From a virus: a DNA stretch of 40,640 bases. Positions 15,762-18,081 of this stretch are shown piece by piece. Positions within the stretch are counted from its first letter, which is position 1. The number at the start of each line of letters is the position of its first letter. The notes below the pieces were generated by a model. The model did no database searches and was not told the DNA's origin. It saw only the letters and a list, made by a program, of their open reading frames with translations. Position numbers and translations under genes: made by a program. The stretch spans positions 1 to 40,640 of IMG/VR virus record IMGVR_UViG_3300028025_000004; one strand, written 5' to 3'.

Positions 15762-15972
15762 CTGGGCACAGCCTCAGTGGCAACACGTTGCGTCAGGTAT
15801 CCGCTGCCGGGCTGACTGGAAGAATGCGTTCGTCTATGACACGGACGCTGGCCTCATCATCGCGTACAGTCAAAAGCACGCTGAAGATAAGGCGGCTGAA
15901 GTCATAGAAGAGCAGGACGCCATGAATGATGAGTTACACGATGAGATTAAGGATCTCTTTAAGCAGGATTGA
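15727..15972 (+). CDS. Hypothetical acidic protein (81 aa)
   Basis: ORF. Its 3' end overlaps the 3' end of the convergent tfuA gene by 14 nt. Confidence 0.4.
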   Translation: MKSKKLPPQLVNWAQPQWQHVASGIRCRADWKNAFVYDTDAGLIIAYSQKHAEDKAAEVIEEQDAMNDELHDEIKDLFKQD

Positions 15973-16939
15973 GCAGGCTGTACTCTTCCGCAAGCGGCAC
16001 ACCCATCACTGCGCCACCAGTAACTGCAAACCATTGCCTAGCGCACTCTCTGGTGGCCAGCTTCATGGCAAACACATTCCATTGCTGGTCAGTGATGCGG
16101 TTGTTTGTGAGCCATTCCCTGGCAGTTTCAGGGCTTGTGACCCCAAGGCTATCCCACATCTGTGTTGACTGAGCCTCAATTTCTGCTGGTGTGGGCGTAA
16201 TTCCAATGCTACGAGCCAACTCAAAAAACAAGTGTAGGTCTATTGCTTCAGTTTGGTTTGGAACAACTTGCCACTTTCTTTGCTCACCAATAGGCAAGTC
16301 GTTACTCAGTAATATCTGCATATTACTGTTGATAGCGTTACTGGCCGTGCTGACTGGAGCGCGGTAGGTTGCTGCCAACTCAATGGCTTTTTTGGCATCA
16401 AGCTGTTTTTGGTTGATGTAGGAGTCGGCCAGCTTCTGGCCCACATCAGGCAGGAGTCGCTTAATCGCTGCCCAGCTGCGCTCCATGTAGTAGATCAAGC
16501 GGCACTGCTCAATGATGCTAGTGTCCAGATCAAGGGCAAGCACTGTGGCCCGGATGTTGACCAGTGGTACGGTCAGTGGCTTGGAGCCGTCATCGTAGTG
16601 GCCGTGAGCCAGAGCAACCTCAGAGTCATCTGTGCAGGTGCCGTCTGCGTACCATCCAGCAATCACTCCTACAGGCTCAGCTCCGTATTTGGCACATTCT
16701 ACAGCCCTGAGTGCGCCAAGTGAACCGGCTCCAATAACTCGGCAGCCATGTGCTATGGCAAACAAGATCTCTTTGTGCCACGGAGACAAGGCGTGAGTGA
16801 AATAGCCATCAATGAGCACGATGGTCTTTGCGCCATCAAGGACAGCTTTAGTGATGTCACCCTGCTGCGCTGGTGGGCGCACGTCTAGGTTAGCCATATC
16901 TAGGCCAATTCCGGTAGGTCCAATAAATATGGCAATCAC
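15959..16939 (-). CDS. tfuA: TfuA-like protein (326 aa)
   Basis: IFIGPTG ... RPPAQQGDI ... IVLIDGYF ... SPWHKEILFAIAHGCRVIGAGSLGALRAVE ... GVIAGWY matches the TfuA N-terminal domain signature. The GTG start overlaps the ycaO stop (GTGA). Confidence 0.8.
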   Translation of the reverse strand: MIAIFIGPTGIGLDMANLDVRPPAQQGDITKAVLDGAKTIVLIDGYFTHALSPWHKEILFAIAHGCRVIGAGSLGALRAVECAKYGAEPVGVIAGWYADGTCTDDSEVALAHGHYDDGSKPLTVPLVNIRATVLALDLDTSIIEQCRLIYYMERSWAAIKRLLPDVGQKLADSYINQKQLDAKKAIELAATYRAPVSTASNAINSNMQILLSNDLPIGEQRKWQVVPNQTEAIDLHLFFELARSIGITPTPAEIEAQSTQMWDSLGVTSPETAREWLTNNRITDQQWNVFAMKLATRECARQWFAVTGGAVMGVPLAEEYSLLNPA

Positions 16940-18081
16940 AGGTTCCTGCCCTCCTGTCCGCCTGTGTGGTAATAGCCCTGTAGTGTAGGGATAGCCATCT
17001 TAACTACTGAGCATGGATATGGGTGATCAAATACTTTAATTAAAGGCTCTGGCATATTTGCTTTGTTTAACTTTGTGAGTATTACTTTGATGTCTCCAAC
17101 AAATGAATCAGTGCTCAAATCATCATAGTGATTGCTTGATGTTGTTTTAGTGAATGAAAGCAACCGATCTAATGTTGGTTTACTGTCCTTAAATTTGTTT
17201 TCAAAAAATATCTTATGGTACACGTCATCACGGCTGCCGCTCATGAACACAACCCTGGCTTGCATGGCTTCGCAAAGTGCCCTGCACTGAGCAATCTGAG
17301 GGCTTAAATGTGTGGCATAGCCCTTGTACATGCCGATATTGCGCTCTTGGTCGTACACATAACAGATATAGGTGGGTATTCCTATATCAAGGGTGCAGTC
17401 CAAAATAATTGGGATAACGCCATTGCTTTTTAACTGCTCAATTAAAGATAAGAGCGTGGCATCGGTTATGGTGTTTTGATCAACAACTATGCCATCAATC
17501 TTATTTGAGAAAGCTGAAGCGATTTGATCTCTTTCAATCACTTCATAAAGGCCACCAGCTACAGCTTCTTCCAATGTGTTACCCGCGGATAGCCCATTTG
17601 ATCCTGAGCAAAAAGCAAACTTGAAAAACGGAAATCCAAATTGTGCTGTGTTGGTTTTAACGCACGCCATAGGAACCAACTTTGGCTGTTGCGTTACAAG
17701 CCCGCGCATCTCAGTCCATTCAATAGGCGCGCGAGGGTTGTAAAAGGCCCCCTTGATGCGCTGAAACCTAGTCTCTATGTTACTTAACCTGCTGCCGGAT
17801 TCCATGATTGCATGCAGCGTGGCAGTTTCACCCACATGCCGCTCAAAGCCCTCCATCATGGCGCTACACATGGCCGCCTCTGCGGTAGCTCCCTTGCCGG
17901 AGTCCACGCACAATGATATGGAGTCAGGGCGAACGCACTGCGCTACAGGAATGCTGCAACGATCTAGGCCGGTAATCTCAGAGACACGGGTGATGCCGGC
18001 CTGGTGCCACCAAGGTTTCATTCGAGCTATGGTTTCCTCCGGCGTACAGGCTCTCTGAGCGCCTTCTAATTTTAATTTCAT
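16936..18081 (-). CDS. ycaO: YcaO-domain protein (ATP-dependent peptide backbone-activating enzyme, TfuA-associated type)
   Basis: TPEETIARMKPWWHQAGITRVSEITGLDRCSIPVAQCVRPDS and VDSGKGATAEAAMCSAMMEGFERH are classic YcaO N-terminal motifs. 381 aa, immediately upstream of and coupled to tfuA. Confidence 0.85.
   Translation of the reverse strand: MKLKLEGAQRACTPEETIARMKPWWHQAGITRVSEITGLDRCSIPVAQCVRPDSISLCVDSGKGATAEAAMCSAMMEGFERHVGETATLHAIMESGSRLSNIETRFQRIKGAFYNPRAPIEWTEMRGLVTQQPKLVPMACVKTNTAQFGFPFFKFAFCSGSNGLSAGNTLEEAVAGGLYEVIERDQIASAFSNKIDGIVVDQNTITDATLLSLIEQLKSNGVIPIILDCTLDIGIPTYICYVYDQERNIGMYKGYATHLSPQIAQCRALCEAMQARVVFMSGSRDDVYHKIFFENKFKDSKPTLDRLLSFTKTTSSNHYDDLSTDSFVGDIKVILTKLNKANMPEPLIKVFDHPYPCSVVKMAIPTLQGYYHTGGQEGRNL

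What the first reader, a model, noticed from the sequence alone, without database searches (positions are those of the whole stretch)
15959..18081. Phage-encoded YcaO-TfuA (peptide thioamidation) cassette wedged antisense into the early region
**Seen in sequence**
- Two minus-strand genes interrupt an otherwise uniformly plus-strand block.
- The 381-aa product carries YcaO hallmarks: GITRVSEITGLDRCSIPVAQCVRP and SGKGATAEAAMCSAMMEGFERH.
- The 326-aa product carries TfuA hallmarks: IFIGPTG, RPPAQQGDI, LIDGYF, WHKEILFAIAHGCRVIGAGSLGALRAVE.
- The two genes are translationally coupled through a GTGA start/stop overlap at 16936-16939.
- The fit into the flanks is extremely tight. The tfuA 3' end overlaps the convergent ORF 15727..15972 by 14 nt, and the ycaO ATG lies 3 nt from the divergent ATG at 18085. 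Its promoter must therefore lie inside another ORF.
- By eye, the ycaO C-terminal half (about 17000-17700) is much more AT-rich than the flanks, which suggests foreign origin.

**Established knowledge**
- YcaO plus TfuA is the enzyme pair that installs backbone thioamides. Known cases are McrA thioglycine, thioviridamide-type thioamitides and thiopeptin-type peptides.
- TfuA assists sulfur delivery.

**Inference**
- No other RiPP tailoring, export or immunity gene and no obvious precursor lies nearby.
- The phage may therefore thioamidate one of its own proteins, a host protein, or a cryptic small peptide.
- I am not aware of a described function for such a pair in a virus.
Basis: partly seen in the sequence, partly recalled or inferred. 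Interest (0 to 1): 0.9.

Follow-up and report, generated by a model that had tools for sequence, protein, structure and literature searches.

The report
Phage-borne YcaO–TfuA backbone-thioamidation gene pair
A complete 40.5-kb uncultivated phage genome carries an intact, strongly conserved pair of enzymes (YcaO + TfuA) that in cells replace an oxygen by sulfur in a protein backbone; it belongs to a large, so far undescribed family of phage copies that normally sit inside the virion-protein operon, and what they modify is unknown.

Summary
ORFs 16936..18081(-) and 15959..16939(-) are a full-length YcaO (Pfam E=3.5e-56) and a TfuA (E=2e-28; model superposes on M. acetivorans TfuA). They are coupled by a GTGA overlap and lie antisense between two small plus-strand genes of a complete circular podophage genome.

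- **Not a chimera or remnant.** The same junction recurs in at least 6 independent assemblies, dN/dS is about 0.05-0.1, and the catalytic motifs are invariant.
- **Secondary transplant.** Sister phages have an empty site (s81 and s73 joined by ATGA). About 100 related viral/metagenomic loci carry the pair co-directionally between virion genes gpA and gpB, which are adjacent here (985/989). The window's YcaO nests inside that clade.
- **Two genes only.** The moved unit has no precursor, carrier or tailoring gene, so substrate and sulfur donor act in trans.
- **Candidate target.** gpA is the best candidate. A distinct gpA C-terminal variant always co-occurs with the cassette, but linkage could explain this, and this phage has the other variant.
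- **Novelty.** Neither gene occurs in 50,697 GenBank phages, and no paper describing them was found.

Verdict: a new viral variant of a known enzyme system; the chemistry is inferred and the target is open.

The parts
16936..18081 (-). ycaO, 381 aa: stand-alone YcaO domain protein (ATP-dependent backbone amide activation).
   Evidence: PF02624 E=3.5e-56, full-length match. TIGR00702 174 bits against a cutoff of 75.65. PDB sequence matches include the M. jannaschii thioamide-forming YcaO 6PE3/6PEU at E=9e-20. AF2 model pLDDT 89.4, pTM 0.91. Invariant S73/E77/E80/R81, N162-N168, E172, E180/E183/R184/D185, R267/E271/Q274/R276 and R284-D286 in 35 homologues.
15959..16939 (-). tfuA, 326 aa: an N-terminal TfuA domain of about 200 aa plus a conserved C-terminal helical domain (about 205-326) of unknown role.
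   Evidence: PF07812 E=2.1e-28. PDB 6XP8 TfuA by sequence, E=3.8e-22. AF2 model pLDDT 91.8. Foldseek top hit 6XP8, E=2.5e-13, TM 0.78 normalised to the target, with no significant hit for the C-terminal domain. Invariant WHKE and GxSxGALRA motifs in 41 homologues.
16936..16939 (-). GTGA overlap: the ycaO stop (TGA) overlaps the tfuA start (GTG), giving translational coupling.
   Evidence: ORF coordinates. The same 4-nt overlap occurs in L001, L003, L004, L016 and others. The same arrangement is described for methanogen ycaO-tfuA (PMC5589413).
15957..18084 (.). Inserted unit of about 2.13 kb that holds only tfuA and ycaO, with no flanking non-coding DNA, wedged into what is an ATGA-coupled s81/s73 junction in sister phages.
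   Evidence: L155, whose flanking genes are 94-98% identical, has s81 directly followed by s73. L167, L179, L183 and L184 also lack the pair. The same junction is present in window, L001, L003, L301 and L302.
15727..15972 (+). s81, an 81-aa small early gene. Its last codons now overlap the tfuA 3' end. It forms the left flank of the insertion.
   Evidence: Conserved in 7 related loci with or without the cassette. No family hit.
18085..18306 (+). s73, a 73-aa small early gene divergent from ycaO, with starts 0-3 nt apart in relatives. It forms the right flank of the insertion.
   Evidence: No family hit.
17001..17500 (.). Low-GC 3' half of ycaO, a compositional trace of a lower-GC donor.
   Evidence: GC 0.398. 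The same profile is seen in L001, L003 and L004. L004 is a 45%-GC phage with the pair at the gpA/gpB site and is the nearest relative in the YcaO tree.
40092..40640 (+). gpA, 5' part. The gene continues at 128..985 across the circular junction, for 468 aa in total. In most relatives this is the gene immediately upstream of ycaO.
   Evidence: Terminal 127-nt repeat and an in-frame join. gpA homologues end at the ycaO start in 66 of 77 viral loci.
128..985 (+). gpA, 3' part. It carries a Gly/Ala-rich hydrophobic stretch and then a type-1 CW.AR C-terminal domain. gpA is a candidate substrate or partner.
   Evidence: Alignment A2. Type-1 HMM 126 bits against 47 bits for type 2. Homologous to the C-terminus of HMO-2011 gp25.
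989..1570 (+). gpB, 193 aa. In relatives this gene directly follows tfuA. The 985/989 junction is the empty ancestral slot in this genome.
1..127 (.). Assembly overlap identical to 40514..40640, which marks a complete circular or terminally redundant genome.
   Evidence: An ENA contig of 40,654 bp equals 40,513 + 141.

Best explanation
**What it is**
The two genes encode a functional, stand-alone YcaO-TfuA enzyme pair carried by a lytic-type podophage.

**Proposed mechanism** (by homology with the methanogen and RiPP systems)
1. YcaO uses ATP to O-phosphorylate a backbone amide of a protein or peptide substrate.
2. TfuA supplies a sulfide equivalent. In known systems it does this by hydrolysing a ThiS-type thiocarboxylate, which here must be a host protein.
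3. The result is a backbone thioamide, a C=O to C=S change of +15.98 Da.

**Genetics**
- The pair is a compact mobile module of an extended family of about 40-kb uncultivated podophages.
- Its ancestral and usual home is the distal end of the late operon. There it is translationally coupled between gpA and gpB, upstream of a giant internal-protein gene. gpA is Q/A-rich, has a C-terminal hydrophobic segment and is a presumed internal or ejection virion protein.
- In this genome and its closest relatives, the bare two-gene unit was transplanted, inverted, into an ATGA-coupled junction of two small early genes.
- It has been maintained there under purifying selection.

**Substrate**
The unit carries no precursor, so the substrate is encoded in trans. 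The most likely target is a phage virion protein, with the C-terminal region of gpA the leading candidate.

**Shown versus inferred**
- Shown: domain identity, intact motifs, selection, the insertion and its empty site, the ancestral synteny, and the absence of a cis precursor.
- Inferred: thioamide chemistry, a host sulfur donor, and gpA as target.
For: **Identity**
- Family and structure matches.
- Catalytic motifs are invariant across 35 and 41 homologues.
- An ungapped alignment of residues 160-277 to E. coli YcaO residues 179-296 puts N168, E180, E183 and R267 on Ec N187, E199, E202 and R286. The roles of those E. coli residues are from my memory of Dunbar et al. 2014.

**Function retained**
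- dN/dS is 0.05-0.11 against L001 and L003, which share the same insertion.

**Real, not an artefact**
- An identical junction occurs in ENA ERZ27245867 and Logan SRR8439020.
- It also occurs in 94% relatives in four more assemblies.

**Insertion**
- Empty sites: L155, L167, L179, L183, L184.
- The contig of L081/L167 (39.9 kb) lacks the pair at both sites.

**Ancestral site**
- 77 viral loci were found.
- The gene order is VSP-fibre-gp136-gpA-YcaO-TfuA-gpB-gp363, all on one strand with overlapping stops and starts.
- The same layout holds at 41-43% identity in 24-63 kb phage-like contigs, followed by proteins of more than 2,000 aa.
- The window clade nests inside the gpA-adjacent clade, sister to L004.

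**Link to gpA**
- A type-2 gpA C-terminal domain is followed by YcaO in 75 of 77 cassette loci.
- This also holds in 31 of 31 loci ascertained through gpA rather than YcaO.
- All 65 or so cassette-less loci have type 1.
- Both flanks (the gpA N-terminal part and gpB) are shuffled among arrangements, so the domain variant tracks the cassette and not the backbone.

**No cis substrate or carrier**
-.

**Literature on mechanism and coupling**
- PMC5589413 and PMC13063428.
Against: - No biochemical datum exists for any member of this clade.
- Both proteins score far below the equivalog cut-offs for the McrA system: 179.6 against 365, and 109 against 235. Substrate specificity therefore cannot be transferred.
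- The gpA link could be plain hitch-hiking. The roughly 200-bp domain lies between the cassette and the nearest conserved recombination point.
- The cassette also occurs with a type-1-like domain (L065/L217) and with no such domain at all (L030-L032).
- In this very genome it occurs with a type-1 gpA encoded about 15 kb away.
- No promoter-like or Shine-Dalgarno-like signal was found for the antisense unit. Scan hits were at or below chance, so when and how it is expressed is unknown.
- gpA has no known function or structure.
Confidence: 0.6

Rival explanations
1. The pair thioamidates a host protein. This could re-tune or protect a host machine during infection, as E. coli YcaO does for ribosomal protein uL16, or it could blunt a defence or sensor protein. 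On this reading the virion-operon position is historical, or reflects packaging and ejection of the enzymes with the internal proteins.
For: - Large cellular proteins are established YcaO substrates: McrA (PMC5589413) and uL16 (PMC13063428).
- The unit works without any linked phage partner in the window clade and stays under purifying selection.
- In the type-1 background it is facultative among near-identical phages, as accessory host-interaction genes typically are.
- In the window clade it sits among early and accessory genes such as a methylase or Mom-like gene and a phosphoesterase.
Against: - In about 100 loci it is embedded in, and translationally coupled to, late structural genes.
- The host is unknown: no tRNA genes were found, and the closest cellular YcaO is only 35-37% identical.
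- There are no hits to known defence-related families.
Confidence: 0.25
2. It is a minimal RiPP pathway. A small, unannotated peptide encoded elsewhere in the phage or host genome is thioamidated to give a bioactive peptide such as a toxin, signal or anti-competitor compound.
For: - Most bacterial TfuA-associated YcaOs are in RiPP clusters (PMC8120280).
- The TfuA has an extra helical C-terminal domain that could bind a leader peptide.
Against: - There is no room for a precursor inside the unit, at either genomic site. Stops and starts overlap on both sides.
- No protease, transporter, immunity or further tailoring gene accompanies it.
- The C-terminal domain shows no RRE or winged-helix match.
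- The small flanking ORFs s81 and s73 are present unchanged in cassette-less sisters.
Confidence: 0.07
3. The chemistry is not thioamidation. YcaO might catalyse azoline or amidine formation, or another ATP-dependent amide activation. Alternatively, TfuA might act mainly as a thiocarboxylate hydrolase that perturbs host sulfur-carrier pools.
For: - YcaO enzymes catalyse several outcomes from the same activated intermediate (PMC5589413 discussion).
- The best PDB sequence hit is the azoline-forming MusD.
- An invariant Cys directly follows the hydrophobic stretch of gpA.
- At the same slot, related phages carry a different ATP-dependent PP-loop enzyme with a Cys-rich partner.
Against: - Strict, translationally coupled pairing with TfuA holds in all complete loci. 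In every characterised case this pairing marks thioamide formation (PMC8120280, PMC5589413).
- There is no E1-like, Ocin-ThiF or dehydrogenase partner.
- The top NCBIfam hit is the McrA-thioamidation model.
Confidence: 0.06
4. It is an assembly chimera or a decaying, non-functional passenger.
For: It has an odd antisense position with no flanking non-coding DNA and no detectable promoter.
Against: - The same junction is found in at least 6 independent assemblies.
- Both ORFs are intact in all relatives, dN/dS is 0.05-0.11, and the catalytic residues are invariant.
Confidence: 0.02

Closest known systems
Methanogen YcaO-TfuA (McrA Gly465 thioglycine formation; TIGR03266 / NF033432)
   Same: - Stand-alone YcaO of about 380 aa with no E1-like partner.
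- tfuA lies immediately downstream with a stop/start overlap.
- The substrate is a large protein encoded elsewhere, with no leader-peptide logic.
- It gives the best NCBIfam hits for both proteins.
- The TfuA fold matches 6XP8.
   Different: - Scores are far below the equivalog cut-offs: 179.6 against 365, and 109 against 235.
- There is no McrA.
- The genes are encoded by a virus.
- TfuA carries an extra helical domain of about 120 aa.
- The genomic home is a virion-protein operon.
E. coli-type YcaO acting on ribosomal protein uL16 (Rice et al. 2026, PMC13063428)
   Same: - A YcaO that thioamidates a folded protein rather than a RiPP precursor.
- The substrate is not encoded nearby and had to be found by proteome-wide complex prediction. 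The same strategy is applicable here.
   Different: - EcYcaO is 586 aa, strongly acidic (pI 4.4) and TfuA-independent.
- The phage protein matches NF040716 at only 52 bits against a cutoff of 700.
- The phage protein has a pI of about 6 and is always paired with TfuA.
TfuA-associated YcaOs of thioamidated RiPP clusters (thioviridamide/thioamitides, thiovarsolins, thiopeptin; PMC8120280, PMC6511847)
   Same: An adjacent ycaO-tfuA pair. The chemistry expected is the same.
   Different: - There is no precursor peptide, no further tailoring enzymes, no transporter and no immunity gene.
- The module consists of two ORFs only.
Phage accessory ('moron'/auxiliary) gene cassettes inserted at fixed slots between conserved structural genes
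   Same: - Presence or absence among near-identical genomes.
- Precise insertion at gene junctions.
- Compositional difference from the host genome.
- Alternative cargo at the same slot: PAPS-reductase-like plus CxxCxxCC proteins in L248-L262.
   Different: The cargo is a protein-backbone-modifying enzyme pair not previously reported in viruses. In one gpA background (type 2) it is apparently never lost.

Membership tests
YcaO superfamily (PF02624 / TIGR00702) | Full-length YcaO domain scoring above the curated cut-off. | tested here: met
   PF02624 191.3 bits against 25.7, profile positions 1-324 of 325. TIGR00702 174.2 bits against 75.65.
YcaO superfamily (PF02624 / TIGR00702) | Intact ATP/Mg2+-binding motifs (three motifs of Dunbar et al. 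2014). | tested here: met
   S73xxxE77xxE80R81, N162-N168/E172/E180xxE183RD and R267xxxE271xxQ274xR276 are invariant in 35 homologues. An ungapped alignment to E. coli YcaO residues 179-296 maps them to N187, E199, E202 and R286. The residue roles are recalled from the literature; the primary paper could not be retrieved.
YcaO superfamily (PF02624 / TIGR00702) | YcaO fold. | tested here: inconclusive
   The AF2 model is confident (pLDDT 89.4, pTM 0.91). It was searched only against the viral library, which gave no hit. The fold assignment rests on sequence matches to six solved YcaOs.
Thioamide-forming (TfuA-associated) YcaO | tfuA immediately adjacent and co-transcribed or translationally coupled. 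| tested here: met
   GTGA overlap at 16936-16939. TfuA follows YcaO in all loci that extend far enough.
Thioamide-forming (TfuA-associated) YcaO | Product carries a backbone thioamide (+15.977 Da). | not testable with these tools
   Requires mass spectrometry.
McrA-glycine thioamidation YcaO/TfuA (TIGR03266, NF033432 equivalogs) | Score above the equivalog cut-off, and presence of McrA. | tested here: not met
   179.6 bits against 365, and 109.3 bits against 235.2. This is a phage genome without mcr genes.
uL16/S12-associated E. coli-type YcaO (NF040716) | Score above the equivalog cut-off; about 580 aa, acidic, TfuA-independent. | tested here: not met
   52.3 bits against 700. 381 aa, pI 6.5, paired with TfuA.
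TfuA family (PF07812) | TfuA domain above the cut-off, and TfuA fold. | tested here: met
   99 bits against 30. Foldseek 6XP8 E=2.5e-13, TM 0.78 over 210 columns. HKE and GxSxGALRA motifs are invariant.
TfuA family (PF07812) | ThiS-type thiocarboxylate carrier available as sulfur donor. | tested here: not met
   No Gly-Gly-terminated small ORF is present in the phage. A host carrier would have to be used, and the host is unknown.
Thioamidated RiPP biosynthetic gene cluster | Precursor peptide gene next to the enzymes. | tested here: not met
   The insert contains only the two ORFs. At the ancestral site both ends overlap gpA and gpB.
Thioamidated RiPP biosynthetic gene cluster | Accessory tailoring, protease, export or immunity genes. 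| tested here: not met
   None was found among the annotated neighbours.

The most novel reading that the evidence does not exclude
A widespread family of aquatic podophages post-translationally thioamidates one of its own virion or ejection proteins, gpA, in or next to its C-terminal hydrophobic/CW.AR region. If so:
- The 'type-2' gpA variant depends on this modification.
- This would be the first backbone thioamide in a virus particle.
- It would be the third known class of protein (non-RiPP) thioamide substrate, after McrA and uL16.
- The window phage would show that the enzyme pair can be transplanted as a bare two-gene unit and still be kept.
Probability: 0.3. Interest if true: 0.9.

Novelty: new variant of a known kind. 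Interest (0 to 1): 0.75.

Why it matters
- Backbone thioamides in proteins are extremely rare. Only McrA and, very recently, ribosomal uL16 are known, and their biological purpose is still debated.
- A virus-encoded YcaO-TfuA family offers a small, genetically tractable system in which to ask what a protein thioamide is for. The genome is 40 kb, the module is two genes, and natural plus and minus sister genomes and alternative gpA variants exist.
- It extends protein-backbone editing to viruses.
- It flags an unrecognised hot-spot slot in HMO-2011-like podophages that swaps ATP-dependent, possibly sulfur-handling, enzyme cassettes.
- It supplies about 100 diverse, compact YcaO-TfuA pairs for enzymology and peptide engineering.

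Tried and rejected
- **Promoter and terminator scan (15400-19200).** Hits were at or below shuffle expectation, with none upstream of ycaO. No conclusion on expression is possible.
- **Electrostatic complementarity** (the pI heuristic of Rice et al.). Phage YcaOs have pI of about 5-8, and both gpA C-terminal types are strongly basic (+8/+9). It does not discriminate.
- **Phage-encoded ThiS-like carrier.** None was found.
- **Defence or anti-defence family hits for YcaO/TfuA.** None was found.
- **Identity of the TfuA C-terminal domain.** There is no significant PDB match, only weak HTH-like noise. The RRE idea is not supported.
- **Identity of gpA.** No Pfam, PHROG or PDB-profile match was found. 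The only cultured relative is HMO-2011 gp25, annotated 'hypothetical'.
- **Host assignment.** No tRNAs were found. The nearest cellular YcaOs are only 35-37% identical (Acidimicrobiia and Gemmatimonadota MAGs), so no host inference is possible.
- **Hidden second type-2 gpA domain in the window.** None was found.
- **'The 30 nt upstream of ycaO came with the insert'.** Rejected after junction comparison. The s73 N-terminus is simply diverged.
- **Primary papers for residue roles** (PMC4167974, PMC5406272, PMC8084935, PMC6535971). These are not held.
- **Context of the cellular homologue in L220.** This was abandoned because high GC gave too many spurious ORFs.

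
Full report
**1. The observation**

The two minus-strand ORFs exist exactly as described.
- ycaO is 16936..18081 (381 aa, ATG start). tfuA is 15959..16939 (326 aa, GTG start).
- They share a GTGA stop/start overlap.
- tfuA overlaps the convergent 81-aa ORF s81 (15727..15972) by 14 nt.
- The ycaO ATG lies 3 nt from the divergent ATG of the 73-aa ORF s73 (18085).
- GC falls to 0.398 at 17001-17500, against 0.50-0.56 around it.

The window is a phage.
- It has a terminase large subunit, an SU10-type portal, a scaffold, a major head protein, tail and tail-fibre proteins and an endolysin.
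- It is a complete genome. Bases 1-127 equal bases 40514-40640, giving 40,513 unique bp. An ENA MEGAHIT contig of 40,654 bp (= 40,513 + 141) carries the identical TfuA.

**2. Enzyme identity**

*YcaO*
- It matches Pfam PF02624 over the whole profile (E=3.5e-56) and TIGR00702 above its cut-off.
- By sequence it matches six solved YcaOs, including the thioamide-forming M. jannaschii enzyme.
- The three acidic/basic nucleotide-binding motifs are invariant in 35 homologues down to 41% identity.
- An ungapped alignment to E. coli YcaO residues 179-296 puts N168, E180, E183 and R267 on the E. coli residues I recall as ATP/Mg ligands. I could not retrieve the primary paper.
- The AF2 model is confident (pLDDT 89.4, pTM 0.91).

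*TfuA*
- It matches PF07812 (E=2e-28) and the solved M. acetivorans TfuA both by sequence and by fold (Foldseek E=2.5e-13, TM 0.78).
- It has an additional, confidently modelled helical domain (about 205-326). This domain is conserved in the phage clade and in the nearest cellular homologues, but has no structural match.

*What it is not*
- Neither protein reaches the equivalog cut-offs for the McrA system or the E. coli-type YcaO.
- It is a YcaO-TfuA pair, but not an orthologue of any characterised one.

**3. Real and functional**

- The same antisense junction occurs in independent assemblies:
  - JGI 3300071516, 3300071517 and IMG/VR 3300009160;
  - Logan SRR8439020 and ENA ERZ27245867;
  - 94%-identical relatives in ERZ27280136, ERZ27263687, ERZ28613035 and ERR3761195.
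- Against L001 and L003, which share the insertion, dN/dS is 0.05-0.07 for ycaO and 0.06-0.11 for tfuA. dS is saturated, so the ratios are approximate.
- Chimera and decay are therefore excluded as far as sequence can show.

**4. An insertion with an empty site**

- Sister phages have s81 directly followed by s73 through an ATGA overlap and no cassette.
  - L155 is the clearest case; its flanking genes are 94-98% identical to the window's.
  - L167, L179, L183 and L184 also lack it.
- The 39.9-kb contig behind L081/L167 lacks the pair at both possible sites.
- All cassette-bearing relatives share the same junction. The s73 start abuts the ycaO ATG by 0-3 nt, so this was one event.
- The inserted unit is about 2.13 kb and is just the two ORFs. 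It has no precursor, no carrier, no non-coding flank and no recognisable promoter.

**5. Where it came from**

- The YcaO has about 60 protein clusters at 43-94% identity, many on contigs of about 40 kb, and 77 IMG/VR loci.
- In the great majority the order is: virion structural protein, tail fibre, gp136, gpA, YcaO, TfuA, gpB, gp363. All are on one strand with overlapping stops and starts.
- In the window, gpA (40092..40640 + 128..985) and gpB (989..1570) are directly adjacent.
- More distant homologues (41-43% identity; 24-63 kb phage-like contigs) keep the same logic, followed by giant proteins of more than 2,000 aa. These parallel the window's 1,564-aa ORF.
- A neighbour-joining tree puts the window clade inside the gpA-adjacent clade as sister to L004 (69% identity).
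- L004 is a 45%-GC phage, and the window's ycaO shares its low-GC 3' half.
- So the 'foreign' donor was a related phage, and the early-region antisense position is derived.
- The nearest cellular YcaOs are only 35-37% identical.

**6. A lead on the target**

*gpA*
- gpA is Q/A-rich with an MGxGK N-terminus and a Gly/Ala-rich hydrophobic stretch. This is usually followed by a basic domain of about 65 aa that begins with an invariant CW.AR.
- The family is far more widespread than the cassette: at least 599 IMG/VR hits. It includes gp25 of the SAR116 phage HMO-2011, which sits after the tail-fibre genes and before gp24, gp23 and gp22.
- Its function is unknown.

*Two forms of the C-terminal domain*

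| Form | Sequence pattern | Where found |
|---|---|---|
| Type 1 | CWVAREVYGxxNPxW...KYGERFAKFISNKP... | All 65 or so loci where gpA is followed directly by gpB, and the window itself |
| Type 2 | CWxARA[A/C]FGTxTxRW...AS[D/H]... | 75 of 77 loci where YcaO-TfuA follows |

- In loci ascertained through gpA rather than through YcaO, type 2 is followed by YcaO in 31 of 31 cases. That is 6 in IMG/VR and 25 in JGI metagenomes.
- The upstream flank (the gpA N-terminal part; for example L095+ and L086- are 91.6% identical in DNA up to about 270 nt before the stop) and the downstream flank (gpB) are both shuffled among arrangements.
- The domain variant therefore tracks the cassette, not the backbone.

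*A third arrangement at the same slot*
- In some phages gpA stops after the hydrophobic stretch.
- It is followed by a PAPS-reductase-like PP-loop protein and a CxxCxxCC protein.

*Caveats*
- The association could be hitch-hiking of a 200-bp segment that lies between the cassette and the nearest conserved recombination point.
- L030-L032 have the cassette after a gpA with no CW.AR domain.
- L065/L217 have a type-1-like domain.
- The window clade keeps the enzymes under selection with a type-1 gpA and no type-2 copy anywhere.

*Reading that fits all cases*
- gpA, perhaps its universal hydrophobic C-proximal region, is the substrate or partner.
- The type-2 domain may additionally have become dependent on the modification.
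- This is inference.

**7. Mechanism**

- By homology, YcaO phosphorylates a backbone amide oxygen with ATP, and TfuA provides the sulfide equivalent (PMC5589413).
- In non-sulfidic organisms the sulfide comes from a ThiS-type thiocarboxylate (PMC13063428).
- The phage encodes no such carrier, so the host must supply it.
- The stop/start coupling of ycaO and tfuA is the same as in methanogens.
- Protein, non-RiPP, substrates are precedented by McrA and uL16.

**8. Novelty**

- Neither protein has any tblastn match in 50,697 GenBank phage records, even at E=0.01-0.1.
- PHROGs has no family for either protein.
- The viral structure library has no YcaO-like fold. It has a single uncharacterised metagenomic relative of the TfuA, labelled 'COG3482'.
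- Full-text searches combining YcaO, TfuA or thioamide with phage or viral terms found no description.
- Global surveys of TfuA clusters do not mention viruses.
- The enzyme kind is known. The viral setting, the virion-operon home, the two-gene mobile unit and the gpA association appear to be new.

**9. Verdict**

- It is best described as a new viral variant of the YcaO-TfuA thioamidation system, with an unknown trans substrate.
- Interest is high but tempered by the lack of any biochemical evidence.

Noticed in passing
window 1-127 and 40514-40640: There is an exact 127-nt terminal direct repeat. The window is therefore a complete circular or terminally redundant genome of 40,513 bp, and ORF 40092..40640 continues into 128..985 as one 468-aa gene (gpA).
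   Followed up: yes
L248-L262 (e.g. L252:2998-5572; L253, from a 41.7-kb contig): At the same gpA/gpB slot, closely related phages carry a different cassette. gpA ends after its hydrophobic stretch with no CW.AR domain. It is followed by a 280-aa PAPS-reductase-like PP-loop protein (SGGKDS; PF01507, E=1e-10) and a 110-aa CxxCxxCC protein (PF03692, E=8e-9). This is possibly another ATP-dependent, sulfur- or Fe-S-related modification module.
   Followed up: partly
window 128-985 (gpA C-terminus); L080-L154; L306 (HMO-2011 gp25): The CW.AR C-terminal domain preceded by a Gly/Ala-rich hydrophobic segment is very widespread in uncultivated podophages, with at least 599 IMG/VR hits. It also occurs in the SAR116 phage HMO-2011, yet has no Pfam, PHROG or PDB assignment.
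   Followed up: partly
window 9536-10192 and 12610-13191: A DnaB-like helicase appears split into two ORFs. DnaB_C profile positions 2-45 fall at the end of the first ORF, and positions 49-254 fall in the second. About 2.4 kb of other genes lie between them, including a dNMP kinase (10415-10951) and a PD-(D/E)XK nuclease (10867-11712). No room for intein halves is evident. The same split is seen in L001.
   Followed up: partly
window 14941-15761: The C5 cytosine methylase ORF (14943..15761) matches only the N-terminal third of the profile, plus a C-terminal GNG motif. The middle of the gene encodes an HNH endonuclease motif in another reading frame (ORF 14941..15687; PF01844, E=3.5e-4). This could be an embedded homing endonuclease, a frameshift or an intron.
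   Followed up: partly
window 20555-20956 (-): This is probably another genuine minus-strand gene (133 aa, no family). Its homologue is called on the ycaO strand in L302/L303, where two or three further small genes on that strand precede ycaO. This hints at a leftward transcription unit.
   Followed up: partly
window 2667-7361: A 1,564-aa ORF has no Pfam, PHROG or PADLOC hit. It occupies the position where more distant relatives have products of 2,390+ aa (with a RadC domain) and 4,573 aa. These are presumably giant internal or ejected virion proteins.
   Followed up: no
L001:8271-8951 and L001:12893-13570: The 72%-identity relative has a DUF7227 gene on the ycaO strand and a Mom-like (PF25680) gene where the window has the C5 methylase. 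The region around the cassette is a variable accessory or DNA-modification zone.
   Followed up: no
L076:5431-7571: In a more distant phage (YcaO 32% identical), the YcaO-TfuA pair sits between the portal and major capsid protein genes. This is a third independent location, again within the structural module.
   Followed up: no
window 2001-2500 and 37001-37500: There are two further GC dips (0.408 and 0.404), inside gp363 and the 734-aa virion structural protein. This may reflect mosaic exchange with lower-GC relatives.
   Followed up: no
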